Shown piece by piece: positions 1,551-32,699 of a stretch of 64,000 nt of DNA. The notes below the pieces were generated by a model that had not been told where the DNA came from, made no database searches, and saw only the letters and a list, made by a program, of their open reading frames with translations. The stretch is from Antedon mediterranea (Eukaryota > Animalia > Echinodermata): the NCBI RefSeq assembly GCF_964355755.1, contig NC_092677.1, forward strand, positions 15,460,101 to 15,524,100. The letters run 5' to 3'. A program made the translations under genes and the position numbers. Positions within the stretch are counted from its first letter, which is position 1; every line of letters starts with the position of its first letter.

Positions 1551-1588
1551 TTAAGTAATTCATCTGGTGAAATTAGTGTAAACATTAT

Positions 1589-3291: not shown

Positions 3292-4820
3292 ACGAGATGG
3301 TGCGTTTATCATGGTAAAATGTGACGTATGCTATCATAAAGCATCATATCAGTGTCTGAAACGAGCAACTGGTGTCTGCCATCAAATACGGAATGAATGG
3401 GACATGTGATCAGTTTTGGTCAGTGGAGAAGTAACCTTCAGCAATGAAGACACCACGTGTGATCTTGTGGATGCATCGACTCGTTTTAACCTGTATCCAG
3501 AACGTGGTGAACTGTGTATAGTTGCTTCTACTGCTACATCTACCCAAACCAAGCACAATATACACATAGCTACTACCCTGTTGGCAATCTTCTCTACCTT
3601 AGAAGAAACCGAGATACAGGTTATAATCACGGTGAGGCAGAAACTTACGGTGGCTGATTTCCGCCAAAGAAACAAATTATTTTATAATAATACGGCGTGA
3701 TAACGCCGTAATTAGGGCGTTATAACGCCGTATTAAGGCGTTATAATGCCCTAATTTTACAATCCGTTCACACGTACATGCGCAAGCGTAGTACATCAAC
3801 AAACCCAGAGCCATAAAAGTTTCGACTATAAATGGATTGAATCAATTTGTTTAAAGGTTTTTGTTAAAATAATAATATTATTTTGATGATTTTAATCAAA
3901 ATAGATTTAATCCATTTAATTTAACGGCTCTGGCTGTGCGCTCTATGCACGCTCTACGCGTGCGCGTTTATTTTGTACAGCGATTCTCTAATAGTAATGC
4001 ATTGTTTTTACATTTTGTTGTTTAAAATTCATTCATTCATTCAAGTAAACATTCATTTCTACGATAAGAAAAAACATTTTTTTCAATTTACAAATAAATT
4101 ATGAGATTAAAATCATCTTCGCCGTAACTTATGATTGCGTTATCTTAACAAAAACCTTTAAACAAATTGATTGTTTTGATATTAAATTAGATATTTAAAA
4201 CCTTGTGAAAGTTATACATTTTTTAAGCAAATGACTCGACTCCATACACTACATAGGCATATTGGACACAAAGATGGCCAGTAATGTACCACGTGAATTT
4301 CTAAAATCTATGAATGCGCCGAGAGGTTTGTTGATGTACTACGCATGCGCATGTACGTGTGAACAGATTGTATATTTAGGGCGTTATAACGCCTTAATAC
4401 GGCGTTATAACGCTGTATTATTATAAAATAATTTGTTTCTTTGGCGGAAATCAGCCACTGTAGAAACTCGATGTCAGAAAGAGTTCGGAGGTCACATGGC
4501 ACTACCTAGAGATGTCTATAATGTTAGTTTAAGTGGTGTTAAATGTGTTTGGAATCAGCGTAGGAGTTTTTGCTCACTTTCCAACATCGACCTAAACCAG
4601 TATCCACCACTGGGTAATAGCCATTAGAGGCGTCGGTACAATTTGGTGATATTAGTGGTACACTGAAAGAGCACGCTTCATTACTCCAGTATTCGATTGG
4701 ATCGCAGAACAGAGAGTAGTAAAATCATGTCCCATAGTGCATGGCAAAAACTGTGAATTTATAGGTTTATTTGAAGAAACCAAAAAAAAACCCCATTTTA
4801 GGTTAGGACGCTTTTTGTTA
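3292..4820 (+). pseudogene. Pseudogene copy 1 of the PAN/3xLink gene (last-exon remnant)
   Basis: Clear nucleotide match to 7829-8770 (e.g. SGEVTFSNEDTTCDLVDASTRFNLYPER, ETRCQKEFGGHMALP) with frameshifts and deletions, interrupted by the element at 3646-4462. Signal-peptide and PAN exons not found. Confidence 0.9.
3646..4462. mobile_element. Non-autonomous TIR element with 6-bp TSD, IS3EU-like termini
   Basis: ~140-160 bp TIRs beginning TAC(G/A)GTGGCTGATTTCCGCC; flanked by GAAACT twice, whereas the intact paralogue near 37880 has a single GAAACT. Confidence 0.85.
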
Positions 4821-8770: not shown

Positions 8771-9212
8771 CAATGGAATACAGCCATGCACGCTCAGCCT
8801 TTATAACAATTATCGTTATTGAAATGATAGTAGACATGTGATGCCACTTGTAATATGCTAATTTTTTACCTGCACCTTAATTATATCAGTAGCAGATAAG
8901 AACTCACATTACATTTACATCTAATATTGATGAAATTACTTACAAATGAATGTTTTATATTAGCAATATAACTAATTTTACTAATTAACAAAACAATTAG
9001 GAATTGTGTAGCATAAAAAGTTTTCACAATATATAAACATACAGTACGCTTACTATACTATACTGTAATATAACAAGTGATAATAAGTAATAAATAAGTA
9101 GTGACCAACTAACATTATGTTTACAAAATATATAATTATGTTAACTGTATTCAGGCAATAACACATACTGTAATCCGTAACAATAGACGACCAATTATTT
9201 GTATAGTGGGGT

Positions 9213-12200
9213 TATGGCAAGCCTCAGCTGTCTGAAGTATTCAAAATATTATATTATTATATCATTTTTTAATTATATTATATATTGTATTGTAATGAAT
9301 TATACGTTTTGCATTATATTACTTGGTTTTAGCATTATATTATATCTATTTCTAATATATTATGTGAAAAATGTAACAAATTATTGACTTTTTGTATTAT
9401 ATTATTTGGTTTTAGCATTATATTATGAACATTTAATATTATATTATTAATAAAATACATTATATTATAATATAATTGTATTATATTAAACGCATTTACT
9501 TTACTTTATAACATACAACATTATTATATTATACGGATTCGTTAGTTATATTATTATTTTGTATGATGTTTATTATACGTCACGGCTTATTTCAGTTCTT
9601 CTAACTCTTTCTCTCCCTCCCCCTGTTCACTAGCAATCAGCGGCCGGCAGAATCTGAATTGTGACTGTTGAAGAATAACTACGTACTAGGCCTAGCCTAG
9701 GGGATCTAGACAAGTGACCAAGGATCACCGGACAGCTACAACTAATACTACAATACAATAATACTACTACAATAACTACTACTGCTACTACCTAGGCCTA
9801 GCTAGTGAGTAGTAGGTAGCTACTACTAGGCTCTAGGGCGTATGTATGATGTTAACTACAAGGGCCTAGGCCTAGACTTAAGTTGTAGTAGCCTGCTGCC
9901 TTAGGCTAGGCTACTACTACTACTACTACTAGGCAGCCCATGATGGGTACGAGTAAGCCAAAATGTTGGATATATGTAAACCAAAATTTGGGTACGAGCG
10001 TGTTGGCATGGTATGGGTACGGGTTGACCTGTATCCTTCTAGCTAATCGTACTATGCCTAGGCCTCAAGTAAGTCTACGCTACCCAGTCCGGCTACAATA
10101 TGGTCTATTTTGTTTTATAGCTTTATTGATAGCTGGGTTCAAATCTGGGTTGGGACGGCTTTTTCTCATTCTAAAACAGATTTCCTTATCATAATAAAAT
10201 AATATATGAATTTATTTGTAATATTATTGTAATGTATACATAATATAAGTAATTGCCATTGCCTTTATTACTATTAATTATGTATTATACGGTTACCCCT
10301 TAATTATACTATAGTATAATTTCCTTGTTATATTTTACAATATTTTCTTCCTAATTCTACAATTTTGTCTTTCACAGCACAAATTTATCATACTGAATCA
10401 TCACACACCAAGTCTCATAAATCTCTACTGTATTTGTCCAAGCTACTCCAGCTACATGGTATTGCCTTGAGGCTAAATTACACGGTATACTGGCACTACC
10501 ATCATTCCTGGCTCGTCAACCTGTACCACATAAGCACAGTTTCAGTTTCAGTTTATTTACCATTTCAATTTCTGAACATAAGAGATGAACAACTTATATG
10601 GATGGATAATCGTAAGAGCGAAGCTCGTTTACCGGTCACCCGTTAGTGCAGTGACATTACAGACAACATAAAGACAGGACAAAGGTGCAATACTTAACAA
10701 GACATGTGAACACTTGTGTTTGCAACCCCTTGGATAAAATAATATATTTATATAATGGAGAAAGTTAGATATTATAATATTTCTTTTTGATCATACAATG
10801 ATAATTTTTAAATTACTTCTTAAGAAGTCATACTACTGATTCAAAATAGTGACTTACACCCTGTGGTCAAGGCTTTCTTTGCTCTTATGCTTATATCCTC
10901 CAACATACAGAGTACATAGGACTTTTTTTATTCATAACTGTTGGAATTGTTTCCCAATACATAGTACCTATTGGTATTATATCTAAAAATACAAAGGCGG
11001 CTAACACAGATAGTTCCATATATACAGTACTCCTTTATAAATAAATGTATCTCTCCAAACTACTCCCAACTACCTAATCTAATAATAGTACTATTAGCAT
11101 ACTACTATACACTTTGTAGACAAGAAATAAGTTGTATACACTACAGGACTTATGGTAGTACAGTCGATCGCCCTCTCACTGGCCCGGTCAACATAATCTA
11201 TACCTAGATTATTACAGTAATTAAAGTACATTATTACAGAGTTTTTTTTTTTTTTGCAGAAATCAAAGTTATGTGTATAGAAAGCAGTACTCGTATTAAA
11301 AACTAAGCAGGTTTTTGAACGCAAACTGGCAGGATATTTTGAATATTTTTTGTTGTTGAAATGATGGAATCCTAACTTCAATTTCCACGAACCCTTTTAT
11401 TTAAATTTATTTGAATAGACCTCCATGTAAACTCATTAAAGGCTACATGATTGTTTTATATTTTAATATGTGATAGTAGAAAATCATTGTGTATAATGAG
11501 GACTATGAATCTGATATTTACTTGCATTCTCATCTTTTTAAATTATTATTTATAATGCCGGTAATGAGTTTAAAATTTAATTACCGTATATTGACTATTT
11601 TTGATAATCATCATTCAAGATTCAAGATTCAAGAAATTTTATTTGTCCATAAAAATGGAAATTCACTTTGCTTGGTAGATTAAAACAACAATATTGCAAC
11701 AATTTAAAAACGTGCAGTATTATAACAGATTAAAAATACAAGATAAAAAGTAAAAACACTGTTAAAAATGTAAAACTATGTCCTTATAAATTCATTTATA
11801 TTTCTTTTGTGTAATATAGTTCATATATTATGTATTAAGTAAATTGGTAAGGCCCTATACTGTTACTATTTAAGGAAAGTTTATATACACTATTATTTTA
11901 TGCCTACCAATATTAGTATTAATTGTTTATGTAAATATTTTGTCTAATTGCCTTGATTTTTTGTATAGGCCAATGGCATCAATGTTTTTCTCAAAGCAAA
12001 TTAGCCTAATAATGCCACATTTAGACACATGATTCATTGATTTCTGATATTCTGTACTTGTGTATGCATTACTAAAATAGTAGTTAATATATTTCATTTA
12101 TAATGTATGTATAAACATATATTCATATTTTGTTTAACATTTTTAAATTTAAAAATTATTACAATACCTATCTACCTTTCTGATATTGTTACTATTATAT

Positions 12201-15200
12201 AATATTCTTTGAGGCAGCAATAAAAAAAAAAATTGGAACAATTAATTTGACTTATACTGTACTATGTTAGTTCAGGAGATGAAGTGTGTGTGGGCAGAAA
12301 CTAGTGTGTTGGAGGTTGGTGGTGTGAGGTGTATAGTTGTCACTTTAAGACCTAAATTAGATGTTTTCTGAAGAAAAGAAGTAAGCGCATACGCTTTCAA
12401 ACAACTCCAAGAAGATTCACACAAAAATAATTACTTTCCAATAAAGTAGTATAACAGTGTATATTACAGTACATTGAATAAACTCGAGCGGAATAATAAC
12501 GCACATAAAAAAACATTCATTTTCTTTTCGAAAAGTGCCCTCTCTAGTTTTCTATAAATTTATTAATAATTATTATTAATTAATGAGTAATATGAACATA
12601 TTTTTAACATTCAATGCTGGAAGCTGGTTCTACTCCTAACAAAGTTTCATATCTCCAAATTTCATCAACGTATTCAAAGCACTTCAATATTAAATATCAC
12701 ATTTAACATAAAAATTCGGGTTTTGGATAGAATTTTGCTTAAAAACATATACAAAAAACATCGATAAAAAATACTTTTCGTATTCAAAAACATTTGATAC
12801 TTGGTATAAATGTTCACTATAGGTTGCTCTATTCACAGACAAAAATTGCATTCATGAACGTTTTTTGTTGGTTGTTTTTTCAAAATAGTTATTAGCTTGA
12901 AAAAAATGAGTTGGAATTGTATGGTCTTTCATAAGTGTACATTTTGTAAAAACGTAAATTTAAAAAATCAGTGATATGGCTTGATAGTTATGTTTTGTTT
13001 GCAATATGGATGGAGCAACCTATATTGAACATTTATACCAAGTATCAAATGTTTTTGAATACGAAAAGTATTTTTTATCGATGTTTTTTGTATATGTTTT
13101 TAAGCAAAATTATATCCAAAACCTGAATTTGTAATGTTAAATGTAATTTATTTAAGTGCTTTGAATACGTTGATGAAATTTGGAGATATGAAACTTTGTT
13201 AGGAGTAGATACAGTTTCCAGCATTAAATTTTAAAAATATGTTCATATTACTCATTAATTGATAATAATTATTAATAAATTAATAGAAAACTAGAGAGGG
13301 CACTTTTCGACAAGAAAATGAATGTTTTTTTATGTGTGTTATTATTCCGCTCGAGTTTATTCAATGTACTGTAATATACACTGTTATACTATTTTATTGG
13401 AAAGTAATTATTTTTGTGTGAATCTTCTTGGAGTTGTTTGAAAGCGTATCCGCTTACTTCTTTTCTTCAGAAAACATCTAATTTAGGTCTTAAAGTGACA
13501 ACTATACACCTCACACCACCAACCTCCAACACACTAGTTTCTGCCCACACACACTTCATCTCCTGAACTAACATAGTACAGTATAAGTCAAATAAATTTT
13601 TAATTTTTTTTTTATTGCTGCCTCAAAAAATATTATATAATAGTAACAATATCAGAAAGGTAGATAGGTATTGTAATAATTTTTAAATTTAAAAATGTTA
13701 AAAAAAATATGAATATATGTTTATACATACATTATAAATGAAATATATTAATTACTATTTTAGTAATGCATACACAAGTACAGAATATCAGAAATCAATG
13801 AATCATGTGTCTAAATGTGGCATTATTAGGCTAATTTGCTTTGAGAAAAACATTGATGCCATTGGCCTATACAAAAATCAAGGCAATTAGACAAAATATT
13901 TGCATAAACAATTAATACTAATATTGGTAGGCATAAAATAATAGTGTATATAAACTTTCCTTAAATAGTAACAGTATAGGGCCTTACCAATTTATTTAAT
14001 ACATAATATATGAACTGTATTACACAAAAAAAGTATAAATGAATTTATAAGGACATGATGATTATCAAAAATAGTCAATATAATTAAATTTTAAACTCAT
14101 TACCGGCATTATAAATAATATTTTAAAAAGATAAGAATGCAAGTAAATATCAGATTCATAGTCCTCATTATACACAATGATTTCCTACTATCACATATTA
14201 AAATATAAAACAATCATGTAACCTTTAATGACTTTACATGGAGGTCTATTCAAATAAATTTAAATGAAAGGGTCATAATATGTCTTCGTCTCCAGTTCGT
14301 GGAAATTGAAGTTAGGATTCCATCATTTCAACAACAAAAAATATTCAAAATATCCTGCCAGTTTGCATTCAAGACCTGCAACCTGCTTAGTTTTTAATAC
14401 GAGTACTGCTTTCTATACACATAACTTTGATTTCTGCAAAAAAAAAAAAAAACTCTGTAATAATGTACTTTAATTACTGTAATAATCTAGGTATAGATTA
14501 TGTTTACCGGGCCAGTGAGAGGGCGTTCGACTGTACTACCATAAGTCCTGAAGGTGGATACAACTTATTTCTTGTCTTCAAAGTGTATAGTAGTATGCTA
14601 ATAGTACTATTATTAGATTAGGTAGTTGGGAGTAGTTTGGAGAGATGCATCTATCTATAAAAGAGTACTGTATATATGGAACTATCTGTGTTAGCCGCCT
14701 TTGTATTTTTAAATATAATACCAATAGGTACTATGTATTGGGAAACAATTCAACAGTTATGAATAAAAAAAGTCCTATGTACTCTGTATGTTGGAGGAAA
14801 TACCCATAAGAGCAAATAAAGCCTTGACCACAGGGTGTAAGTCACTATTTTGAATCAGTAGTATGACTTCTTAAGAAGTAATTTAAAAATTATCATTGTA
14901 TGATCAAAAAGAAATATTATAATATCTAACTTTCTCCTTTATATAAATATATTATTTTATCCAAGGGGTTGCAAACACAAGTGTTCACATGTCTTGTTAA
15001 GTATTGCACCTTTGTCCTGTCTTTATGTTTTCTGTAATGTCACTGCACTAACGGGTGACCGGTAAACGAGCTTCGCTCTTACGGTTATCCATCCATATAA
15101 GTTGTTCATCTCTTATGTTCAGAAATTGAAATGGTAAATAAACTGAAACTGTGCTTATGTGGTACAGGTTGACGAGCCAGGAATGATGGTAGTGCCAGTA

Positions 15201-16536
15201 TACCGTGTAGTTTAGCCTCAAGGCAATACCATGTAGCTGGAGTAGCTTGGACAAATACAGTAGAGATTTATGAGACTTGGTGTGTGATGATTCAGTATGA
15301 TAAATTTGTGCTGTGAAAGACAAAATTGTAGAATTAGGAAGAAAATATTGTGAAATATAACAAGGAAATTATACTATAGTATAATTAAGGGGTAACCGTA
15401 TAATACATAATTAATAGTAATAAAGGCAATGGCAATTACTTATATTATGTATACATTACAATAATATTACAAATAAATTCATATATTATTTTATTATGAT
15501 AAGGAAATCTGTTTTAGAATGAGAAAAAGCCGTCCCAACCCAGATTTGAACCCAGCTATCAATAAAGCTATAAAACAAAATAGACCATATTGTAGCCGGA
15601 CTGGGTAGCGTAGACTTACTTGAGGCCTAGGCATAGTACGATTAGCTAGAAGGATACAGGTCAACCCGTACCCATGGCATATGCCATGCCAACACGCTCG
15701 TACCCAAATTTTGGTTTACATAATATATCCAAAATTTTGGCTTACTCGTACCCATCATGGGCTGCCTAGTAGTAGTAGTAGTAGTAGCCTAGCCTAAGGC
15801 AGCAGGCCCGGCCCTAGCCTACTACAACTTAAGTCTAGGCCTAGCCTAGTACTAGTAGGCCTCTAGGCCTAGCCTAGGCCTAGGCCCTAGTAGTTAACAT
15901 CATACATACGCCCTAGAGCCTAGTAGTAGCTACCTACTACTCACTAGCTAGGCCTAGGTAGTAGCAGTAGTAGTTATTGTAGTAGTATTATTGTATTGTA
16001 GTATTAGTTGTAGCTGTCCGGTGATCCTTGGTCACTTGTCTAGATCCCCTAGGCTAGGCCTAGTACGTAGTTATTCTTCAACAGTCACAATTCAGATTCT
16101 GCCGGCCGCTGATTGCTAGTGAACAGGGGGAGGGAGAGAAAGAGTTAGAAGAACTGAAATAAGCCGTGACGTATAATAAACATCATACAAAATAATAATA
16201 TAACTAACGAATCCGTATAATATAATAATGTTGTATGTTATAAAGTAAAGTAAATGCGTTTAATATAATACAATTATATTATAATATAATGTATTTTATT
16301 AATAATATAATATTAAATGTTCATAATATAATGCTAAAACCAAATAATATAATACAAAAAGTCAATAATTTGTTACATTTTTCACATAATATATTAGAAA
16401 TAGATATAATATAATGCTAAAACCAAGTAATATAATGCAAAACGTATAATTCATTACAATACAATATATAATATAATAAAAAAATGATATAATAATATAA
16501 TATTTTGAATACTTCAGACAGCTGAGGCTTGCCATA
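9213..16536. mobile_element. Giant palindromic (foldback) element A, 7324 bp
   Basis: Ends TATGGCAAGCCTCAGCTG...CAGCTGAGGCTTGCCATA; arms 9213-12829 and 13013-16536; spacer 12830-13012; TSD TGGGGT (9207-9212, 16537-16542). Confidence 0.95.
11613..11777 (-). mobile_element. 3' fragment of a LINE inserted in the left arm of element A
   Basis: ~165 bp absent from the other intact arms; minus strand ends AATAAA...(TCTTGAA)n. A similar tail lies on + near 32290-32322. Confidence 0.65.
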
Positions 16537-16859
16537 TGGGGTAGTACAGTAAGTAATTAAGATTATTATTAAGAGTATTTGTATTTCTTTAGTTTTTATA
16601 TACACAACGTCGAAATTAAATCTAAAATGTATTTCTTGGAAATAATATTAAGAAAATACATTAGTAGTAGAAAGCTTTTTTTTTTTAGTTGTAGTTTAGT
16701 TTAGAGATTAATACTGGTTACTGTAGTAATATACCTCTCCATATCTTAATTCAATTGATTCTCTATACATAGTGAAAAAAATAGTATAATTGGCTGTGAT
16801 ATACAAAATGAAAACATACTATTTGTATGAGAATTATATTGTATATTTTAGAGAAAGTG

Positions 16860-19800
16860 TATGGCAAGCCTCAGCTGTCTGAAGTATTCAAAATATTATA
16901 TTATTATATCATTTTTTTACTATATTATATATTGTATTGTAATGAATTATACGTTTTGCATTATATTACTTGGTTTTAGCATTATATTATATCTATTTCT
17001 AATATATTATGTGAAAAATGTAACAAATTATTGACTTTTTGTACTATATTATTTGGTTTTAGCATTATATTATGAACATTTAATATTATATTATTAATAA
17101 AATACATTATATTATAATATAATTGTATTATATTAAACGCATTTACTTTACTTTATAACATACAACATTATTATATTATACGGATTCGTTAGTTATATTA
17201 TTATGTTGTATGATGTTTATTATACGTCACGGCTTATTTCAGTTCTTCTAACTCTTTCTCTCCCTCCCCCTGTTCACTAGCAATCAGCGGCCGGCAGAAT
17301 CTGAATTGTGTGACTGTTGAAGAATAACTACGTACTAGGCCTAGCCTAGGCCTACTAGGGGATCTAGACAAGTGACCAAGGATCACCGGACAGCTACAAC
17401 TAATACTACAATACAATAATACTACTACAATAACTACTACTGCTACTACCTAGGCCTAGCTAGTGAGTAGTAGGTAGCTACTACTAGGCTCTAGGGCGTA
17501 TGTATGATGTTAACTACAAGGGCCTAGGCCTAGACTTAAGTTGTAGTAGCCTGCTGCCTTAGGCTAGGCTACTACTACTACTACTACTAGGCAGCCCATG
17601 ATGGGTACGAGTAAGCCAAAATGTTGGATATATGTAAACCAAAATTTGGGTACGAGCGTGTTGGCATGGTATGGGTACGGGTTGACCTGTATCCTTCTAG
17701 CTAATCGTACTATGCCTAGGCCTCAAGTAAGTCTACGCTACCCAGTCCGGCTACAATATGGTCTATTTTGTTTTATAGCTTTATTGATAGCTGGGTTCAA
17801 ATCTGGGTTGGGACGGCTTTTTCTCATTCTAAAACAGATTTCCTTATCATAATAAAATAATATATGAATTTATTTGTAATATTATTGTAATGTATACATA
17901 ATATAAGTAATTGCCATTGCCTTTATTACTATTAATTATGTATTATACGGTTACCCCTTAATTATACTATAGTATAATTTCCTTGTTATATTTTACAATA
18001 TTTTCTTCCTAATTCTACAATTTTGTCTTTCACAGCACAAATTTATCATACTGAATCATCACACACCAAGTCTCATAAATCTCTACTGTATTTGTCCAAG
18101 CTACTCCAGCTACATGGTATTGCCTTGAGGCTAAATTACACGGTATACTGGCACTACCATCATTCCTGGCTCGTCAACCTGTACCACATAAGCACAGTTT
18201 CAGTTTCAGTTTATTTACCATTTCAATTTCTGAACATAAGAGATGAACAACTTATATGGATGGATAATCGTAAGAGCGAAGCTCGTTTACCGGTCACCCG
18301 TTAGTGCAGTGACATTACAGACAACATAAAGACAGGACAAAGGTGCAATACTTAACAAGACATGTGAACACTTGTGTTTGCAACCCCTTGGATAAAATAA
18401 TATATTTATATAATGGAGAAAGTTAGATATTATAATATTTCTTTTTGATCATACAATGATAATTTTTAAATTACTTCTTAAGAAGTCATACTACTGATTC
18501 AAAATAGTGACTTACACCCTGTGGTCAAGGCTTTCTTTGCTCTTATGCTTATATCCTCCAACATACAGAGTACATAGGACTTTTTTTATTCATAACTGTC
18601 AATGTTTTTCTCAAAGCAAATTAGCCTAATAATGCCACATTTAGACACATGATTCATTGATTTCTGATATTCTGTACTTGTGTATGCATTACTAAAATAG
18701 TAGTTAATATATTTCATTTATAATGTATGTATAAACATATATTCATATTTTGTTTAACATTTTTAAATTTAAAAATTATTACAATACCTATCTACCTTTC
18801 TGATATTGTTACTATTATATAATATTCTTTGAGGCAGCAATAAAAAAAAAAATTGGAACAATTAATTTGACTTATACTGTACTATGTTAGTTCAGGAGAT
18901 GAAGTGTGTGTGGGCAGAAACTAGTGTGTTGGAGGTTGGTGGTGTGAGGTGTATAGTTGTCACTTTAAGACCTAAATTAGATGTTTTCTGAAGAAAAGAA
19001 GTAAGCGCATACGCTTTCAAACAACTCCAAGAAGATTCACACAAAAATAATTACTTTCCAATAAAGTAGTATAACAGTGTATATTACAGTACATTGAATA
19101 AACTCGAGCGGAATAATAACGCACATAAAAAAACATTCATTTTCTTTTCGAAAAGTGCCCTCTCTAGTTTTCTATAAATTTATTAATAATTATTATTAAT
19201 TAATGAGTAATATGAACATATTTTTAACATTCAATGCTGGAAGCTGGTTCTACTCCTAACAAAGTTTCATATCTCCAAATTTCATCAACGTATTCAAAGC
19301 ACTTCAATATTAAATATCACATTTAACATAAAAATTCGGGTTTTGGATAGAATTTTGCTTAAAAACATATACAAAAAACATCGATAAAAAATACTTTTCG
19401 TATTCAAAAACATTTGATACTTGGTATAAATGTTCACTATAGGTTGCTCTATTCACAGACAAAAATTGCATTCATGAACGTTTTTTGTTGGTTGTTTTTT
19501 CAAAATAGTTATTAGCTTGAAAAAAATGAGTTGGAATTGTATGGTCTTTCATAAGTGTACATTTTGTAAAAACGTAAATTTAAAAAATCAGTGATATGGC
19601 TTGATAGTTATGTTTTGTTTGCAATATGGATGGAGCAACCTATATTGAACATTTATACCAAGTATCAAATGTTTTTGAATACGAAAAGTATTTTTTATCG
19701 ATGTTTTTTGTATATGTTTTTAAGCAAAATTATATCCAAAACCTGAATTTGTAATGTTAAATGTAATTTATTTAAGTGCTTTGAATACGTTGATGAAATT

Positions 19801-22800
19801 TGGAGATATGAAACTTTGTTAGGAGTAGATACAGTTTCCAGCATTAAATTTTAAAAATATGTTCATATTACTCATTAATTGATAATAATTATTAATAAAT
19901 TAATAGAAAACTAGAGAGGGCACGTTTCGACAAGAAAATGAATGTTTTTTCATGTGTGTTATTATTCCGCTCGAGTTTATTCAATGTACTGTAATATACA
20001 CTGTTATACTATTTTATTGGAAAGTAATTATTTTTGTGTGAATCTTCTTGGAGTTGTTTGAAAGCGTATCCGCTTACTTCTTTTCTTCAGAAAACATCTA
20101 ATTTAGGTCTTAAAGTGACAATTATACACCTCACACCACCAACCTCCAACACACTAGTTTCTGCCCACACACACTTCATCTCCTGAACTAACATAGTACA
20201 GTATAAGTCAAATAAATTTTTTTATTTTTTTTATTGCTGCCTCAAAAAATATTATATAATAGTAACAATATCAGAAAGGTAGATAGGTATTGTAATAATT
20301 TTTAAATTTAAAAATGTTTAAAAAAATATGAATATATGTTTATACATACATTATAAATGAAATATATTAACTACTATTTTAGTAATGCATACACAAGTAC
20401 AGAATATCAGAAATCAATGAATCATGTGTCTAAATGTGGCATTATTAGGCTAATTTGCTTTGAGAAAAACATTGATGCCATTGGCCTATACAAAAATCAA
20501 GGCAATTAGACAAAATATTTACATAAACAATTAATACTAATATTGGTAGGCATAAAATAATAGTGTATATAAACTTTCCTTAAATAATAACAGTATAGGG
20601 CCTTACAAATTTATTTAATACATAATATATGAAAAATATTACACAAAAAAAGTATAAATGAATTTATAAGGACATGATGATTATCAAAAATAGTCAATAT
20701 AATTAAATTTTAAACTCATTACCGGCATTATAAATAATATTTTAAAAAGATAAGAATGCAAGTAAATATCAGATTCATAGTCCTCATTATACACAATGAT
20801 TTCCTACTATCACATATTAAAATATAAAACAATCATGTAGCCTTTATTGACTTTACATGGAGGTCTATTCAAATAAATTTAAATAAAAGGGTCATAATAT
20901 GTCTTCGTCTCCAGTTCGTGGAAATTGAAGTTAGGATTCCATCATTTCAACAACAAAAAATATTCAAAATATCCTGCCAGTTTGCATTCAAGACCTGCAA
21001 CCTGCTTAGTTTTTAATACGAGTACTGCTTTCTATACACATAACTTTGATTTCTGCAAAAAAAAACAAAACTCTGTAATAATGTACTTTAAATACTGTAA
21101 TAATCTAGGTATAGATTATGTTTACCGGGCCAGTGAGAGGGCGTTCGACTGTACTACCATAAGTCCTGTAGGTGTATACAACTTATTTCTTGTCTACAAA
21201 GTGTATAGTAGTATGCTAATAGTACTATTATTAGATTAGGTAGTTGGGAGTAGTTTGGAGAGATACATCTATCTATAAAAGAGTACTGTATATATGGAAC
21301 TATCTGTGTTAGCCGCCTTTGTATTTTTAGATATAATACCAATAGGTACTATGTATTGGGAAACAATTCAACAGTTATGAATAAAAAAAGTCCTATGTAC
21401 TCTGTATGTTGGAGGAAATACGCATAAGAGCAAATAAAGCCTTGACCACAGGGTGTAAGTCACTATTTTGAATCAGTAGTATGACTTCTTAAGAAGTAAT
21501 TTAAAAATTATCATTGTATGATCAAAAAGAAATATTATAATATCTAACTTTCTCCTTTATATAATAAATATATTATTTTATCCAAGGGGTTGCAAACACA
21601 AGTGTTCACATGTCTTGTTAAGTATTGCACCTTTGTCCTGTCTTTATGTTTTCTGTAATGTCACTGCACTAACGGGTGACCGGTAAACGAGCTCCGCTCT
21701 TACGGTTATCCATCCATATAAGTTGTTCATCTCTTATGTTCAGAAATTGAAATGGTAAATAAACTGAAACTGAAACTGTGCTTATGTGGTACAGGTTGAC
21801 GAGCCAGGAATGATGGTAGTGCCAGTATACCGTGTAGTTTAGCCTCAAGGCAATACCATGTAGCTGGAGTAGCTTGGACAAATACAGTAGAGATTTATGA
21901 GACTTGGTGTGTGATGATTCAGTATGATAAATTTGTGCTGTGAAAGACAAAATTGTAGAATTAGGAAGAAAATATTGTAAAATATAACAAGGAAATTATA
22001 CTATAGTATAATTAAGGAGTAACCGTATAATACATAATTAATAGTAATAAAGGCAATGGCAATTACTTATATTATGTATACATTACAATAATATTACAAA
22101 TAAATTCATATATTATTTTATTATGATAAGGAAATCTGTTTTAGAATGAGAAAAAGCCGTCCCAACCCAGATTTGAACCCAGCTATCAATAAAGCTATAA
22201 AACAAAATAGACCATATTGTAGCCGGACTGGGTAGCGTAGACTTACTTGAGGCCTAGGCATAGTACGATTAGCTAGAAGGATACAGGTCAACCCGTACCC
22301 ATGCCATGCCAACACGCTCGTACCCAAATTTTGGTTTACATATATCCAAAATTTTGGCTTACTCGTACCCATCATGGGCTGCCTAGTAGTAGTAGTAGTA
22401 GTAGTAGTAGCCTAGCCTAAGGCAGCAGGCCCGGCCCTAGCCTACTACAACTTAAGTCTAGGCCTAGCCTAGTACTAGTAGGCCTCTAGGCCTAGCCTAG
22501 GCCCTAGTAGTTAACATCATACATACGCCCTAGAGCCTAGTATATTCCTACCTACTACTCACTAGCTAGGCCTAGGTAGTAGCAGTAGTAGTTATTGTAG
22601 TAGTATTATTGTATTGTAGTATTAGTTGTAGCTGTCCGGTGATCCTTGGTCACTTGTCTAGATCCCCTAGTAGGCCTAGGCTAGGCCTAGTACGTAGTTA
22701 TTCTTCAACAGTCACACAATTCAGATTCTGCCGGCCGCTGATTGCTAGTGAACAGGGGGAGGGAGAGAAAGAGTTAGAAGAACTGAAATAAGCCGTGACG

Positions 22801-23165
22801 TATAATAAACATCATACAAAATAATAATATAACTAACGAATCCGTATAATATAATAATGTTGTATGTTATAAAGTAAAGTAAATGCGTTTAATATAATAC
22901 AATTATATTATAATATAATGTATTTTATTAATAATATAATATTAAATGTTCATAATATAATGCTAAAACCAAATAATATAATACAAAAAGTCAATAATTT
23001 GTTACATTTTTCACATAATATATTAGAAATAGATATAATATAATGCTAAAACCAAGTAATATAATGCAAAACGTATAATTCATTACAATACAATATATAA
23101 TATAATAAAAAAATGATATAATAATATAATATTTTGAATACTTCAGACAGCTGAGGCTTGCCATA
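16860..23165. mobile_element. Giant palindromic element B, 6306 bp
   Basis: Same termini as A; TSD GAAAGTG (16853-16859, 23166-23172); spacer 19450-19632; ~1.04 kb deleted from the left arm at 18599/18600. Confidence 0.95.
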
Positions 23166-23228
23166 GAAAGTGTGTTTAAAAAAAATAGTTTTATGTATAT
23201 TAATTTTTTTTAGACAGGTTGCCATAAT

Positions 23229-23842
23229 TCATTTATATAACTATTTATATTTCAATGTTTAAGGGCTGAACTTGATTAGCTTGATTAGCTTTAACTATTT
23301 TTAGCCCTTCCCTTGATACAGTTATTATTATTTGTATGTTACAATGTTTATAATTTATATATTCATGGGTAAAATAAAGAAAGAAAAGAAAGAAAGAAAA
23401 GACAGTAAGTTTTTTCAGTTTTTAATGCTGTTTACAAACATCTTTTCTTGATAATTTTATTGAGAAATTTGTAGACATTTACAACGGATTGATTGGAAAC
23501 TACTGTTTCTTATAGACTTTAAACTCATTTGTAAATCCTTTCATAGATTATTTTTTTCAATCAATTGTATATAAAATATCGAGCCTATTGTGCTGTATAC
23601 ATTACCTATGATACAATGTGGCGATACAGCACTGGAAATCCAGTGATTAGCCTATCATTTATATAACTATTTATATTTCAATGTTTAAGGGCTGAACTTG
23701 ATTAGCTTGATTAGCTTTAACTATTTTTAGCCCTTCCCTTGATACAGTTATTATTATTTGTATGTTACAATGTTTATAATTTATATATTCATGGGTAAAA
23801 TAAAGAAAGAAAAGAAAGAAAGAAAAGACAGTAAGTTTTTTC
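23229..23842 (+). repeat. Local 263-bp direct duplication containing a LINE-like 3' tail (AATAAA + GAAA repeats)
   Basis: 23229-23491 is repeated at 23655-23842 and continues at 31067-31141 after element C and its duplicated target. Confidence 0.9.
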
Positions 23843-26800
23843 TATGGCAAGCCTCAGCTGTCTGAAGTATTCAAAATATTATATTATTATATCATTTTTT
23901 ATTATATTATATATTGTATTGTAATGAATTATACGTTTTGCATTATATTACTTGGTTTTAGCATTATATTATATCTATTTCTAATATATTATGTGAAAAA
24001 TGTAACAAATTATTGACTTTTTGTATTATATTATTTGGTTTTAGCATTATATTATGAACATTTAATATTATATTATTAATAAAATACATTATATTATAAT
24101 ATAATTGTATTATATTAAACGCATTTACTTTACTTTATAACATACAACATTATTATATTATACGGATTCGTTAGTTATATTATTATTTTGTATGATGTTT
24201 ATTATACGTCACGGCTTATTTCAGTTCTTCTAACTCTTTCTCTCCCTCCCCCTGTTCACTAGCAATCAGCGGCCGGCAGAATCTGAATTGTGTGACTGTT
24301 GAAGAATAACTACGTACTAGGCCTAGCCTAGGCCTACTAGGGGATCTAGACAAGTGACCAAGGATCACCGGACAGCTACAACTAATACTACAATACAATA
24401 ATACTACTACAATAACTACTACCTAGGCCTAGCTAGTGAGTAGTAGGTAGCTACTACTAGGCTCTAGGGCGTATGTATGATGTTAACTACTAGGGCCTGG
24501 GCTAGGCCTAGAGAGGCTTACTAGTACTAGACTAGGCCTAGACTTAAGTTGTAGTAGGCTAGGGCCGGGCCTGCTGCCTTAGGCTAGGCTACTACTACTA
24601 CTACTACTACTACTACTAGGCAGCCCATGATGGGTACGAGTAAGCCAAAATTTTGGATATATGTAAACCAAAATTTGGGTACGAGCATGTTGGCATGGCA
24701 TGGGTACGGGTTGACCTGTATCCTTCTAGCCAATCGTACTATGCCTAGGCCTCAAGTAAGTATACGCTACCCAGTCCGGCTACAATATGGTCTATTTTGT
24801 TTTATAGCTTTATTGATAGCTGGGTTCAAATCTGTGTTGGGACGGCTTTTTCTCATTCTAAAACAGATTTCCTTATAATAAAATAATATATGAATTTATT
24901 TGTAATATTGTAATGTATACATAATATAAGTAATTGCCATTGCCTTTATTACTATTAATTATGTATTATACGGTTACCCCTTAATTATACTATAGTATAA
25001 TTTCCTTGTTATATTTTACAATATTTTCTTCCTAATTCGACAATTTTGTCTTTCACAGCACAAATTTATCATACTGAATCATCACACACCAAGTCTCATA
25101 AATCTCTACTGTATTTGTCCAAGCTACTCCAGCTACGGTACATGGTATTGCCTTGAGGCTAAACTACACGGTATACTGGCACTACCATCATTCCTGGCTC
25201 GTCAACCTGTACCACATAAGCACAGTTTCAGTTTATTTACCATTTCAATTTCTGAACATAAGAGATGAACAACTTATATGGATGGATAACCGTAAGAGCG
25301 AAGCTCGTTTACCGGTCACCCGTTAGTGCAGTGACATTACAGACAACATAAAGACAAAGGTGCAATACATAACAAGACATGTGAACACTTGTGTTTGCAA
25401 CCCCTTGGATAAAATAATATATTTATATAATGGAGAAAGTTAGATATTATAATATTTCTTTTTGATCATACAATGATAATTTTTAAATTACTTCTTAAGA
25501 AGTCATACTACTGATTCAAAATAGTGACTTACACCCTGTGGTCAAGGCTTTCTTTGCTCTTATGCTTATTTCCTCCAACATACAGAGTACATAGGACTTT
25601 TTTTATTCATAACTGTTGAATTGTTTCCCAATACATAGTACCTATTGGTATTATATCTAAAAATACAAAGGCGGCTAACACAGATAGTTCCATATATACA
25701 GTACTCTTTTATAAATAAATGTATCTCTCCAAACTACTCCCAACTACCTAATCTAATAATAGTACTATTAGCATACTACTATACACTTTGTAGACAAGAA
25801 ATAAGTTGTATACACTACTAGAGGACTTATGGTAGTACAGTCGATCGCCCTCTCACCGGCCCGGTCAACATAATCTATACCTAGATTATTACAGTAATTA
25901 AAGTACATTATTACAGAGTTTTTTTTTTTTTTGCAGAAATCAAAGTTATGTGTATAGAAAGCAGTACTCGTATTAAAAACTAAGCAGGTTGCAGGTCTTG
26001 AACGCAAACTGACAGGATATTCTGAATATTTTTTGTTGTTGAAATGATGGAATCCTAACTTCAATTTCCACGAACTGGAGACGAAGACATATTATGACCC
26101 TTTTATTTAAAATTATTTGAATAGACCTCCATGTAAACTCATTAAAGGCTACATGATTGTTTTATATTTTAATATGTGATAGTAGGAAATCATTGTGTAT
26201 AATGAGGACTATGAATCTGATATTTACTTGCATTCTTATCTTTTTAAAATATTATTTATAATGCCGGTAATGAGTTTAAAATTTAATTATATTGACTATT
26301 TTTGATAATCATCATGTCCTTATAAATTCATTTATACTTTTTTGTGTAATATAGTTCATATATTATGTATTAAATAAATTGGTAAGGCCCTATACTGTTA
26401 TTATTTAAGGAAAGTTTATATACACTATTATTTTATGCCTACCAATATTAGTATTAATTGTTTATGTAAATATTTTGTCTTAATTGCCTTGATTTTTGTA
26501 TAGGCCAATGGCATCAATGTTTTTCTCAAAGCAAATTAGCCTAATAATGCCACATTTAGACACATGATTCATTGATTTCTTATATTCTGTACTTGTGTAT
26601 GCATTACTAAAATAGTAGTTAATATATTTCATTTATAATGTATGTATAAACATATATTCATATTTTTTTAAACATTTTTAAATTTAAAAATTATTACAAT
26701 ACCTATCTACCTTTCTGATATTGTTACTATTATATAATATTTTTTGAGGAAGCAATAAAAAAAAATTAACAAATTTATTTGACTTATACTGTACTATGTT

Positions 26801-29800
26801 AGTTCAGGAGATGAAGTGTGTGTGGGCAGAAACTAGTGTGTTGGAGGTTGGTGGTGTGAGGTGTATAGTTGTCACTTTAAGACCTAAATTAGATGTTTTC
26901 TGAAGAAAAGAAGTAAGCGGATACGCTTTCAAACAACTCCAAGAAGATTCACACAAAAATAATTACTTTCCAATAAAATAGTATAACAGTGTATATTACA
27001 GTACATTGAATAAACTCGAGCGGAATAATAACGCACATAAAAAACCTTCATTTTCTTGTCGAAAAGTGCCCTCTCTATTTTTCTATTAATTTATTAATAA
27101 TTATTATCAATTAATGAGTAATATAAACATATTTTTTACATTTAATGCTGGAAACTGTATCTACTCCTAACAAAGTTTCATATCTCCAAATTTCATCAAC
27201 GTATTCAAAGCAATTAAATAAATTACATTTAACATTACAAATTCAGGTTTTGGATATAATTTTGCTTAAAAACATATACAAAAAACATCGATAAAAAATA
27301 CTTTTCGTATTCAAAAACATTTGATACTTGGTATAAATGTTCAATATAGGTTGCTCCATCCATATTGCAAACAAAAAGTAACTATCAAGCCATATCACTG
27401 ATTTTTTAAATTTACGTTTTTACAAAATGTACACTTATGAAAGAACATACAATTCCAACTCATTTTTTTCATTTCAAGCTAATAACTATTTTGAAAAAAC
27501 AACCAACAAAAAACGTTCATGAATGCAATTTTTTTCTGTGAATAGAGCAACCTATAGTGAACATTTATACCAAGTATCAAATGTTTTTGAATACGAAAAG
27601 TATTTTTTATCGATGTTTTTTGTATATGTTTTTAAGCAAAATTCTATCCAAAACCCGAATTTTTATGTTAAATGTGATATTTAATATTGAAGTGCTTTGA
27701 ATACGTTAATGAAATTTGGAGATATGAAACTTTGTTGGGAGTAGAACCAGCTTCCAGCATTGAATGTTAAAAATATGTTCATATTACTCATTAATTAATA
27801 ATAATTATTAATACATTAATAGAAAACTAGAGAGGGCACTTTTCGAAAAGAAAATGAATGTTTTTTTATGTGCGTTATTATTCCGCTCGAGTTTATTCAA
27901 TGTACTGTAATATACACTGTTATACTACTTTATTGGAAAGTAATTATTTTTGTGTGAATCTTCTTGGAGTTGTTTGAAAGCGTATGCGCTTACTTCTTTT
28001 CTTCAGAAAACATCTAATTTAAGTCTTAAAGTGACAACTATACACCTCACACCACCAACCTCCAACACACTAGTTTCTGCCCACACACACTTCATCTTCT
28101 GAACTAACATAGTACAGTATAAGTCAAATAAATTGTTCTAATTTTTTTTTTATTGCTGCCTCAAAGAATATTATATAATAGTAACAATATCAGAAAGGTA
28201 GATAGGTATTGTAATAATTTTTAAATTTAAAAATGTTTAAAAAAATATGAATATATGTTTATACATACATAATAAATGAAATATATTAACTACTATTTTA
28301 GTAATGCATACACAAGTACAGAATATCAGAAATCAATGAATCATGTGTCTAAATGTGGCATTATTAGGCTAATTTGCTTTGAGAAAAACATTGATGCCAT
28401 TGGCCTATACAAAAATCAAGGCAATTAGACAAAATATTTACATAAACAATTAATACTAATATTGGTAGGCATAAAATAATAGTGTATATAAACTTTCCTT
28501 AAATAATAACAGTATAGGGCCTTACCAATTTATTTAATACATAATATATGAACTATATTACACAAAAAAAGTATAAATGAATTTATAAGGACATGATGAT
28601 TATCAAAAATAGTCAATATAATTAAATTTTAAACTCATTACCGGCATTATAAATAATATTTTAAAAAGATAATGCAAGTAAATATCAGATTCATAGTCCT
28701 CATTATACACAATGATTTCCTACTATCACATATTAAAATATAAAACAATCATGTAGCCTTTAATGACTTTACATGGAGGTCTATTCAAATAAATTTAAAT
28801 AAAAGGGTCATAATATGTCTTCGTCTCCAGTTCGTGGAAATTGAAGTTAGGATTCCATCATTTCAACAACAAAAAATATTCAAAATATCCTGCCAGTTTC
28901 ATTCAAGACCTGCAACCTGCTTAGTTTTTAATACGAGTACTGCTTTCTATACACATAACTTTGATTTCTGCAAAAAAAACAAAACTCTGTAATAATGTAC
29001 TTTAATTACTGTAATAATCTAGGTATAGATTATGTTGACCGGGCCAGTGAGAGGGCGATCGACTGTACTACCATAAGTCCTGTAGGTGTATACAACTTAT
29101 TTCTTGTCTACAAAGTGTATAGTAGTATGCTAATAGTACTATTATAGTTTGGAGAGATACATTTATCTATAAAAGAGTACTGTATATATGGAACTATCTG
29201 TGTTAGCCGCCTTTGTATTTTTAGATATAATACCAATAGGTACTATGTATTGGGAAACAATTCAACAGTTATGAATAAAAAAAGTCCTATGTACTCTGTA
29301 TGTTGGAGGAAATAAGCATAAGAGCAAATAAAGCCTTGACCACAGGGTGTAAGTCACTATTTTGAATCAGTAGTATGACTTCTTAAGAAGTAATTTAAAA
29401 CTTATCATTGTATGATCAAAAAGAAATATTATAATATCTAACTTTCTCCTTTATATGAATATATTATTTTATCCAAGGGGTTGCAAACACAAGTGTTCAC
29501 ATGTCTTGTTATGTATTGCACCTTTGTCTTTATGTTGTCTGTAATGTCACTGCACTAACGGGTGACCGGTAAACGAGCTTCGCTCTTACGGTTATCCATC
29601 CATATAAGTTGTTCATCTCTTATGTTCAGAAATTGAAATGGTAAATAAACTGAAACTGAAACTGTGCTTATGTGGTACAGGTTGACGAGCCAGGAATGAT
29701 GGTAGTGCCAGTATACCGTGTAGTTTAGCCTCAAGGCAATACCATGTACCGTAGCTGGAGTAGCTTGGACAAATACAGTAGAGATTTATGAGACTTGGTG

Positions 29801-31060
29801 TGTGATGATTCAGTATGATAAATTTGTGCTGTGAAAGACAAAATTGTAGAATTAGGAAGAAAATATTGTAAAATATAACAAGGAAATTATACTATAGTAT
29901 AATTAAGGGGTAACCGTATAATACATAATTAATAGTAATAAAGGCAATGGCAATTACTTATATTATGTATACATTACAATATTACAAATAAATTCATATA
30001 TTATTTTATTATAAGGAAATCTGTTTTAGAATGAGAAAAAGCCGTCCCAACACAGATTTGAACCCAGCTATCAATAAAGCTATAAAACAAAATAGACCAT
30101 ATTGTAGCCGGACTGGGTAGCGTATACTTACTTGAGGCCTAGGCATAGTACGATTGGCTAGAAGGATACAGGTCAACCCGTACCCATGCCATGCCAACAT
30201 GCTCGTACCCAAATTTTGGTTTACATATATCCAAAATTTTGGCTTACTCGTACCCATCATGGGCTGCCTAGTAGTAGTAGTAGTAGTAGTAGTAGTAGCC
30301 TAGCCTAAGGCAGCAGGCCCGGCCCTAGCCTACTACAACTTAAGTCTAGGCCTAGTCTAGTACTAGTAAGCCTCTCTAGGCCTAGCCCAGGCCCTAGTAG
30401 TTAACATCATACATACGCCCTAGAGCCTAGTAGTAGCTACCTACTACTCACTAGCTAGGCCTAGGTAGTAGCAGTAGTAGTTATTGTAGTAGTATTATTG
30501 TATTGTAGTATTAGTTGTAGCTGTCCGGTGATCCTTGGTCACTTGTCTAGATCCCCTAGTAGGCCTAGGCTAGGCCTAGTAGTAGTACGTAGTTATTCTT
30601 CAACAGTCACACAATTCAGATTCTGCCGGCCGCTGATTGCTAGTGAACAGGGGGAGGGAGAGAAAGAGTTAGAAGAACTGAAATAAGCCGTGACGTATAA
30701 TAAACATCATACAAAATAATAATATAACTAACGAATCCGTATAATATAATAATGTTGTATGTTATAAAGTAAAGTAAATGCGTTTAATATAATACAATTA
30801 TATTATAATATAATGTATTTTATTAATAATATAATATTAAATGTTCATAATATAATGCTAAAACCAAATAATATAATACAAAAAGTCAATAATTTGTTAC
30901 ATTTTTCACATAATATATTAGAAATAGATATAATATAATGCTAAAACCAAGTAATATAATGCAAAACGTATAATTCATTACAATACAATATATAATATAA
31001 TAAAAAAATGATATAATAATATAATATTTTGAATACTTCAGACAGCTGAGGCTTGCCATA
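23843..31060. mobile_element. Giant palindromic element C, 7218 bp
   Basis: Same termini; TSD TTTTTC (23837-23842, 31061-31066); spacer 27357-27544 inverted relative to A and B. Confidence 0.95.
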
Positions 31061-32699
31061 TTTTTCAGTTTTTAATGCTGTTTACAAACATCTTTTCTTG
31101 ATAATTTTATTGAGAAATTTGTAGACATTTACAACGGATTGTATCAAAGATTAACGTATTTGGAGGTTAACGTATTTTGTACGCATGACTCGCGGCAGTA
31201 GTATCTCGACCGATTCAATATCTCGAACGAATTACACATCATATATTTGATATAGTTTAGTTATATTATAGTTAATGTTAAGTTTAATGTTTTATTTTTT
31301 AAATTGTGTTTCACTTCTTATATAGTTAAAACCGTAAAATGTTAGTAGTGTATTGCACACAGAAAAAAGACGAATTTAATTAAAGTATAAAATGTTTAAT
31401 GCGTACACGCGCAATTAGCAATAATTAATTTTTACATCGGCTTGAAAAGGTTAAACACATAAAACGAATCAAAATCGTTTATACGATACAAAACTAAACA
31501 CGCCATAACATAATTTAGGTCTTAATCAATAATAAATACACGAACAAGAAGTTATTATCTGGTGACGTGCAACAAGGATCCCATTATATTCCAGAGTATC
31601 GTAGATAATTTTTAGTCATCACATCTTTGATAAAAAATAGTAGTTTCAACAACTGGTTTTCTTTGTTGGTAAGATCATACTTTGTTTTTTGTTTAAATAA
31701 AATACTTTTTAATTAAACACAATAAGTAAATTTTACAATATATTCCTGTTTTAAGCCAATTGTTTTAGTTAGATCATAATCAATTCATATAATAATCATT
31801 CTATATAACATAACACATTGTTCTTTGCCATTTTATTTAGTAACATGTCGCTCAGTATTAGTTCTAGTAAACGGAAAAGTGAAAATATAGAGAATGGATT
31901 TGTTTGTAGTTTTGTGCAAAGCGAGAATAAGAATTTTCTTCATTTTCAAAATAAGAGCTCTCTTTTAACTGTTGTTACTAAGAGTTTGAATGTTACCGTT
32001 TTATACATTTTAGTACTATTTTTGGCATTTTTTAGTCCGTTTATGCAAACGATTCTCGGTAGTATTGGTTTCCGAAGTATCATATGTAATATACAACATC
32101 ACATGTTTCACATGTGACATAACCCTTAACCTAACCTTACATGATACACGCACCAATGTTATGCAAATGATATGCCGTATTACCAAATTCCTATTATGCT
32201 TCGGAAATAGATAGTATGTGCAGATACGGCACTTTGGAATTAAGTGGTTTATGTATAATATGTATTTAAAACAAATCTTTTTTGACGAAGACAAATAAAG
32301 TTTCTTGCATCTCGTATCTTGAAAATAATTTGATTCTGAATTATTGGGTGGCTCATATCAAGCTCTGTCTACACTATCAAAGTTTTTGTGACGAAACAAA
32401 TGTGCCCATAATGGACATGTTGATGCCATATCACTACCATCACACTTAACTCGTGCAAATTTGACATTTCTATTAAAATATTATGTTATTTACTATAGCA
32501 ATCTAGCTATACCATCGGTAGTGTTAGAAACGTGCCCATCTTATCATTTTAGAAGTTTGTAATAATATTGTTTGATAATAAAGTTTCTAATACACAGCGT
32601 AAAAACAACACAACTGTAGTAGATAACAGAATACAGTCACTGATAAACATTCCACTTGGCGAATTTATCTCAGTCGAAGCGTTGTGTTGATAAGCGGAT

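What the first reader, a model, noticed from the sequence alone, without database searches (positions are those of the whole stretch)
9213..31060. Three independently inserted 6-7 kb near-perfect palindromic transposons within 22 kb
Each unit is almost entirely inverted repeat: arms up to ~3.6 kb around a ~185-bp spacer, with no recognisable protein. Each has its own TSD (TGGGGT, GAAAGTG, TTTTTC) and they are separated by only 323 and 677 bp of other sequence, so these are three transposition events rather than tandem duplication. TAY...RTA ends with 6-bp TSDs match my recollection of the little-studied IS3EU superfamily. A giant foldback derivative with local hopping or hotspot targeting appears unusual, since palindromes this long are normally unstable. 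This is the best candidate for an undescribed system in the window.
Basis: partly seen in the sequence, partly recalled or inferred. Interest (0 to 1): 0.88.

Follow-up and report, generated by a model that had tools for sequence, protein, structure and literature searches.

The report
Clustered giant palindromic feather-star transposons
Three 6-7 kb gene-less, mirror-image jumping elements of one repeated family sit within about 1 kb of original sequence in a feather-star genome, at least one of them missing from a second allele; they are likely moved by the little-studied IS3EU/GingerRoot enzymes and likely piled up by local jumping, which makes them a striking variant of known foldback transposons rather than a new system.

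Summary
Elements A (9213-16536), B (16860-23165) and C (23843-31060) are inverted repeats with arms of 2.6-3.6 kb, spacers of 183/183/188 bp, TATGG...CCATA ends and TSDs of 6, 7 and 6 bp. They are not fold-back artefacts: the arms differ by 1.4-1.9% plus indels, read contigs show the empty A allele with a single TGGGGT, and C's empty site survives as a perfect 263-bp duplicate next to it. The host is a crinoid (the neighbouring gene matches an Antedon mediterranea protein). Contig depths suggest roughly 40 copies per haploid genome with two arms per spacer, and other copies have other flanks. The ends and TSDs match the published IS3EU/GingerRoot signature; no transposase was found, so membership is unproven. 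'Independent' is only partly right: A and B share an identical tract of about 3.6 kb (left arm and spacer), but their right arms differ by 1%. Divergence between the two arms of one element rises from 0-0.5% at the ends to 3-4% at the spacer, which points to arm-to-arm copying from the ends inward. Foldback architecture of this size (Galileo) and local hopping are both known. Verdict: new variant of a known kind.

The parts
7278..8770 (+). Host gene, last two exon-bearing ORFs (7278-7577, 7814-8770), Xlink/link-domain protein; element A lies 442 bp after its stop codon
   Evidence: 313 of 315 identical to P0001, named Antedon mediterranea by its source
9207..9212 (+). Left TSD of A (TGGGGT)
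   Evidence: single copy in the empty-allele contig
9213..16536 (+). Element A: left arm 9213-12829, spacer 12830-13012, right arm 13013-16536
9245..9530 (+). AT-rich subterminal zone with degenerate 21/42/83-bp repeats, present at all six ends; likely transposase-binding region (inferred)
11614..11778 (-). 165-bp insert in A's left arm only; high-copy repeat with a short tandem tail, likely the 3' end of a LINE (inferred)
   Evidence: depth peak; contigs that skip it; 34-bp match at 32290-32323
16537..16542 (+). Right TSD of A
16853..16859 (+). Left TSD of B (GAAAGTG, 7 bp)
16860..23165 (+). Element B: left arm 16860-19449 with a deletion of about 0.9 kb at 18598/18599 (1-bp microhomology), spacer 19450-19632, right arm 19633-23165
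23166..23172 (+). Right TSD of B
23205..23226 (-). Degenerate terminus-like relic; the only 1-mismatch match to the 10-base end motif outside the six real ends
   Evidence: 0 of 4300 control windows scored as high
23229..23491 (+). 263-bp segment D1, 100% identical to C's two flanks (23655-23842 and 31067-31141) with a single TTTTTC: an in-window empty site of C
23837..23842 (+). Left TSD of C (TTTTTC)
23843..31060 (-). Element C, opposite orientation by its spacer: arm 23843-27356, spacer 27357-27544, arm 27545-31060; the most complete copy
31061..31066 (+). Right TSD of C

Best explanation
These are three young, gene-less copies of one foldback-shaped DNA transposon family, each inserted separately with its own 6-7 bp target duplication, likely mobilised in trans by an IS3EU/GingerRoot-type transposase encoded elsewhere, and likely gathered here by a local jump (A and B) plus a further insertion into the same spot (C). 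Shown: the anatomy, the TSDs, the empty A allele, the empty-site duplicate of C, other copies with other flanks, the identical A/B tract and the arm-divergence gradient. Inferred steps: (1) the palindrome arose once, when one end of a parent element was copied in inverted orientation, because next to the spacer the arms of all three copies still sort into the same two classes; (2) both ends stayed intact, so a transposase can still cut and paste the 7-kb unit; (3) A and B are mother and daughter of a 317-bp hop, the donor being refilled by gap repair that switched templates, which would explain B's 0.9-kb deletion and the unlike right arms; (4) repair and gene conversion copy one arm onto the other from the ends inward, so the ends are nearly identical while the centre keeps 3-4% divergence; (5) the 183-188 bp spacer and that central divergence let the palindrome persist.
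For: TSDs 6/7/6 bp and identical TATGG ends match IS3EU (TA..TA, usually 6 bp, PMC10045372; TAYGG..CCRTA, PMC12730594; 5 of 77 with 7 bp, PMC6839031). Empty A allele: a 1059-base contig in 3 of 4 runs of one sample joins 8400-9212 to 16537-16765, with the loose end equal to window 9177-9206. Empty C site: perfect duplicate D1. Family: in runs X6 and X7 the spacer stands at 44x and 41x the flank depth and single arm contigs at 86-110x, about two arms per spacer; 8 distinct foreign flanks at the termini among the 23 loose-end rows shown; run X1 of another study also holds arm and spacer. A/B link: 0 of 2002 mismatches against 34 of 2929 for the right arms, Fisher p 3e-8; the shared variants are rare in the family (position 12840 carried by about 237 of 46,517 depth units in X5; position 9965 by about 11 of 2185 in X6). 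Gradient: within-element mismatches 0-0.5% in the outer 600 columns and 3.2-4.3% in the inner 860, KS p 6e-6 to 3e-12 for the three elements, against p 0.04-0.38 for 5 same-class pairs from different elements. All 19 class-defining sites lie in columns 3001-3760. Trees: C's arms group together in the outer zone (0.92) and by class in the inner zone (1.0).
Against: No transposase or autonomous partner was seen: no genome is held, and the collection scans gave only chance matches (0 of 123 loci with a partner end and TSD). Superfamily rests on five terminal bases and TSD length. A simple hop predicts identical right arms too; RA and RB differ at 34 sites and A and B also differ in the outer 500 columns (4 substitutions, 2 indels), so extra exchange events are needed. 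C differs from A and B by 1.1-1.9% and by a 5-bp spacer indel, so it is not a recent hop of either. No listed contig bridged a flank-to-element junction of A, B or C by 31 or more bases on both sides. The B empty-site contigs (X5 record 7, X8 loose end) could come from a paralogous place. The depth ratios are rough: the tool states that depth is no copy number, and summed X5 depths give a much higher figure.
Confidence: 0.72

Rival explanations
1. Hotspot plus conversion: A, B and C are three unrelated family members that inserted into one favoured 1-kb target, and the A/B identity is one later gene-conversion tract of about 3.6 kb between neighbours, with no local hop.
For: The identical tract is internal, bounded by differences at column 501 or before and at column 3452 of the right arm; one conversion explains this with fewer events than a hop. 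C is unrelated at the 1-2% level. A terminus-like relic lies in the same gap. Internal conversion tracts between copies are proposed for Galileo (PMC3573991).
Against: It needs three near-coincident insertions without a donor effect; the three TSDs share no motif; local hopping is common for DNA transposons.
Confidence: 0.15
2. The family is a foldback mobilised by a different superfamily whose ends happen to be TA (for example a Ginger2, Maverick or unclassified partner).
For: No transposase seen; foldback shape arises in several superfamilies (PMC4079207; PMC3169594); 6-bp TSDs also occur in Maverick and Ginger2.
Against: Maverick ends are AG and Ginger ends TG; Mutator-type foldbacks have 8-10 bp TSDs; the 5-base TAYGG match is exact.
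Confidence: 0.09
3. The cluster, or the A/B identity, is an assembly or fold-back artefact.
For: Long inverted repeats are hard to assemble; no spanning long read was seen (only contigs); the empty A allele is what the contigs show.
Against: Arms differ by 48-63 substitutions and by indels in a pattern repeated across three copies, whereas fold-back reads are nearly perfect palindromes and virtually absent from HiFi data (PMC12870357); exact TSDs relative to the empty alleles are not expected from mis-assembly; both arm-spacer junctions occur in contigs.
Confidence: 0.03

Closest known systems
IS3EU/GingerRoot DNA transposons (PMC10045372, PMC12730594, PMC11934779: passages; PMC6839031: part 2 of 7 and passages)
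   Same: TA..TA ends, exact TAYGG..CCRTA; TSD mostly 6 bp, sometimes 7; size within the 3.9-12.9 kb range of GingerRoot; superfamily reported from marine invertebrates (Hydra, acorn worm, coral, oyster).
   Different: TIRs are about 3.5 kb, not over 30 or 100-150 bp; no transposase; the whole element is the inverted repeat; no foldback form was found in the passages read.
Galileo two-TIR copies, above all copy 112 of Drosophila willistoni (PMC4168063, PMC3573991: passages)
   Same: Transposase-less element made of two multi-kb TIRs (4246 and 4680 bp) with TSDs; TIRs that take in other sequence; conversion and chimerism among copies.
   Different: P superfamily, 7-8 bp TSD with a target motif; copy 112 is a single extreme copy, whereas here the giant palindrome seems to be the typical form of a family of about 40 copies; no tandem arrays inside the arms here.
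Foldback elements: Drosophila FB, Tetris, sea-urchin long-TIR element (PMC4079207: passages; the 1983 sea-urchin paper seen only as a reference)
   Same: Long TIRs around a non-coding middle; non-autonomous; known in an echinoderm.
   Different: Most are assigned to Mutator with 8-10 bp TSDs and have modular tandem-repeat domains; here 6-7 bp TSDs, only short degenerate subterminal repeats, and a 185-bp middle.
Local hopping of P, Ac and Tc1/mariner elements (PMC2874221: passages)
   Same: Re-insertion near the donor gives clusters of copies with separate TSDs.
   Different: Reported ranges are 100 kb to megabases; here 317 and 670 bp, and not reported for IS3EU in what was read.

Membership tests
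IS3EU/GingerRoot | TA..TA termini (TAYGG..CCRTA in fungal IS3EU) | tested here: met
   6 of 6 ends read TATGG; definitions
IS3EU/GingerRoot | TSD usually 6 bp, occasionally 7-8 bp | tested here: met
   6, 7, 6 bp; A and C verified against empty sites
IS3EU/GingerRoot | TIRs of tens to 150 bp | tested here: inconclusive
   TIRs are present but 2.6-3.6 kb long, far outside the reported range
IS3EU/GingerRoot | DDE transposase of the IS3EU/GingerRoot clade, in the element or in an autonomous partner with the same ends | not testable with these tools
   None in the elements, as expected for non-autonomous copies; no genome held; scans found no partner
Foldback (structural group) | Very long TIRs around a non-coding middle, flanked by TSDs | tested here: met
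Foldback (structural group) | Modular TIRs with a tandem-repeat outer domain | tested here: inconclusive
   Only degenerate 21/42/83-bp repeats in the first 300 bp
Mutator-type foldback | 8-10 bp TSD | tested here: not met
   6-7 bp
Maverick/Polinton | AG termini with 6-bp TSD and virus-like genes | tested here: not met
   TA termini, no genes
Galileo / P superfamily | 7-8 bp TSD with GTATTAC-like consensus | tested here: not met
   2 of 3 TSDs are 6 bp and none resembles the consensus

The most novel reading that the evidence does not exclude
Multi-kilobase palindromes are the normal, actively spreading non-autonomous form of IS3EU/GingerRoot elements in echinoderms, and their transposition cycle itself rewrites the arms from the ends inward (a panhandle or single-strand copy-out intermediate, as recalled for bacterial IS3) and re-inserts copies within a few hundred bases of existing ends. 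This polymorphic three-copy cluster would then be a direct record of a eukaryotic transposition mechanism that has not been studied.
Probability: 0.12. Interest if true: 0.75.

Novelty: new variant of a known kind. Interest (0 to 1): 0.42.

Why it matters
IS3EU structure and function are described as largely unexplored (PMC11934779). A young, polymorphic family with intact ends implies an active transposase in a crinoid genome and gives the end sequence needed to find it. The three copies also record how giant palindromes are kept: a clean end-to-centre gradient of arm identity, an old two-class core and a 3.6-kb exchange between neighbours. About 21 kb of inverted repeat placed 442 bp behind a gene, with A absent from a second allele, is a candidate source of rearrangement and of double-stranded RNA. 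Both architecture and local hopping have precedents, so this is a good case study rather than a new system.

Tried and rejected
Whole-genome search: no genome held, so copy map, TSD spectrum and partner could not be obtained. Collection scans with the end motif: 27 bases, 0 hits in metagenomes; 17 bases, 5 viral and 118 metagenome loci (the second scan covered 51 of 64 parts, and flanks were fetched for 80 of 118). None extended beyond chance, 0 of 123 had a partner end with a TSD of 5 bp or more, and blastn of the arm found nothing. Coding remnants: 27 of 45 ORFs against Pfam, best E 0.019, none at cut-off; a 108-aa arm ORF, no hit among longer proteins (lengths near its own not searched); an exon-like stretch at 25937-26107 gave one HMMER hit, P0005, which is a translated tandem repeat with a 22-bit local match and was rejected. 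Rfam: none. Summed X5 depths were not used for copy number. Tandem duplication as the origin of the cluster was rejected (three different TSDs, unique gaps, C inverted). Insertion directly beside an existing end was rejected (distances 317 and 670 bp). Repbase and Dfam could not be searched, so a catalogued name is not excluded. Paper searches listed no paper describing a foldback IS3EU family or this crinoid family; only 30 of 62, 30 of 47, 25 of 118 and 10 of 15 results were listed, and one listed paper holding both 'IS3EU' and 'foldback' (PMC8268682) was not read. Supplements were not opened; those of PMC10045372 and PMC6839031 may list animal IS3EU termini.

Full report
Observation. Self-comparison of the window shows three large inverted-repeat units: A 9213-16536, B 16860-23165 and C 23843-31060. 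All six ends begin TATGGCAAGC and the 9-base end motif occurs nowhere else in 64 kb. The TSDs are TGGGGT (6 bp), GAAAGTG (7 bp) and TTTTTC (6 bp); the spacers are 183, 183 and 188 bp. C's spacer is inverted relative to A and B. A's left arm holds a 165-bp insert of another high-copy repeat, and B's left arm lacks about 0.9 kb. The two arms of an element differ by 63 of 3437, 48 of 2587 and 50 of 3491 aligned sites. No coding or RNA family was recognised.

Host and context. The gene upstream encodes a link-domain protein that is 313 of 315 identical to a protein its source names Antedon mediterranea, so the window is from a feather star. Element A starts 442 bp after the stop codon. No genome was available.

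Real insertions. Four runs of one sample and one run of another study were laid as contigs. In X5, X6 and X7 one 1059-base contig covers 8400-9212 and continues at 16537-16765; its loose end equals window 9177-9206, so it is the empty A site with a single TGGGGT, and in X6 and X7 it carries 4 other letters, that is a second allele. X8 had no contig there. For C, the segment 23229-23491 is a perfect 263-bp duplicate of C's flanks with one TTTTTC. No listed contig bridged a filled junction by 31 bases on both sides, and no long read was seen. An artefact is still unlikely: exact TSDs against empty sites, arms that differ in a pattern shared by three copies, and both arm-spacer junctions in contigs; fold-back reads are described as nearly perfect palindromes and as virtually absent from HiFi data (PMC12870357, passages).

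A family, not a one-off. Against the flank, spacer depth is 44x and 41x and single arm contigs 86-110x in X6 and X7. The tool warns that depth is no copy number, so this is rough, but it suggests about 40 copies per haploid genome and about two arms per spacer, so the giant palindrome is probably the usual form. Eight distinct foreign flanks appear at the termini among 23 loose-end rows shown, 7 more rows not being shown. X1, from another study, holds arm and spacer at about the same 2:1 ratio. With 40-100 copies in 265-500 Mb (assumed), three within 1 kb are expected 1e-7 to 7e-6 times: the cluster is not chance.

History in the arms. Next to the spacer the six arms fall into two classes (LA, LB, RC against RA, RB, LC): all 19 class-defining sites lie in alignment columns 3001-3760 and the tree support is 1.0. 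So the palindrome formed once, before these copies spread. Further out the classes vanish and arms resemble their partner in the same element: C has 1 mismatch in 968 sites at columns 601-1600 against 15 in 954 between elements (p 2e-4), and A's arms share two deletions near the end. Within-element divergence goes from 0-0.5% in the outer zone to 3.2-4.3% in the inner zone (KS p 6e-6 or smaller), while 5 same-class pairs from different elements show only a weak trend (p 0.04-0.38). The outer 600 columns are conserved between elements too, so part of the gradient may be constraint. I infer arm-to-arm conversion running inward from the ends.

A and B are linked. Their left arms have 0 mismatches over 2002 sites from column 601 on, their spacers are identical over 171 of 171 bases, and the identity runs about 300 columns into the right arm; the rest of the right arms differ at 34 sites. 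Two of the shared variants are rare in the family by contig depth. A local hop followed by gap repair with template switching fits, and would also explain B's deletion; one conversion tract between two separately inserted neighbours fits as well. C differs by 1.1-1.9% and is a separate arrival. A degenerate terminus-like relic at 23205-23226 hints that the spot was hit before.

Comparison with what is known. IS3EU families have TA..TA ends and usually 6-bp TSDs and form one lineage with GingerRoot (PMC10045372, passages); fungal IS3EU end in TAYGG..CCRTA (PMC12730594, passages); 5 of 77 GingerRoot copies have 7-bp TSDs and TIRs are 100-150 bp (PMC6839031, part 2 of 7 and passages). The ends and TSDs here match; the transposase test could not be run, so it works like an IS3EU/GingerRoot derivative but is not proven a member. 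The architecture has precedent: Galileo copy 112 is 9021 bp of two TIRs without transposase (PMC4168063, passages); conversion and chimerism among Galileo copies are proposed (PMC3573991, passages); foldbacks arise from several superfamilies and occur in sea urchin (PMC4079207, PMC3169594, passages). Local hopping is known for P, Ac and Tc1/mariner (PMC2874221, passages). Longer spacers and lower arm identity reduce palindrome instability (PMC7999016, passages). The IS3 copy-out mechanism and gap-repair models are recalled, from no call.

Novelty. Ten paper searches listed no description of a foldback IS3EU family or of this family, within the limits given under Tried and rejected. Earlier notes of this scan report palindromic IS3EU-type elements of 3.5-8.5 kb in other genomes (12 findings held the search words, 8 shown); these are unchecked AI notes and not support, but they suggest the form recurs and is not unique to this window. 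No look-alike or same-genome note was found. What this window adds is the tight, polymorphic cluster, the A/B exchange and the measured gradient.

Verdict. Observation confirmed; interpretation partly supported; new variant of a known kind; interest 0.42.

Noticed in passing
window 23229-23491 and 23655-23842 + 31067-31141: Perfect 263-bp direct duplication separated by 163 bp of unrelated sequence, lying between B and C; C inserted into the second copy. Its origin (repair by-product of transposition or a small separate element) is unexplained.
   Followed up: partly
window 23205-23226 (- strand): Degenerate end-like relic of the same motif 40 bp right of B; one X8 contig lacks the 69 bases that contain it.
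   Followed up: partly
window 3361-3700, 7278-8770, 36654-38460, 58078-58807: Array of paralogous link-domain (Xlink) genes or gene fragments, 77-91% identical in DNA; relatives found only in crinoids among 4 hits.
   Followed up: partly
Read laying, loose ends behind 16912-16916: Contigs that share about 50 bases of the end and then diverge (for example X7 record 23): related subfamilies or the other end of a partner element; they could not be fetched.
   Followed up: no
window 32549-35565 (+) and 48417-51752 (+): Two broken LINE-like elements with endonuclease and reverse-transcriptase-like ORF pieces; the RT label is from recalled motifs.
   Followed up: no
window 47108-47635 (-), with a 134-bp perfect direct repeat at 46829-46962 and 47687-47820: Gag-like (PNMA, weak) ORF between short identical direct repeats: likely a small LTR-element remnant.
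   Followed up: no
window 40830-41620: Smaller inverted-repeat element built of degenerate 17-bp units.
   Followed up: no
window 1585-2278 and 58901-59502: Minisatellite arrays with periods of about 25 and 27 bp.
   Followed up: no
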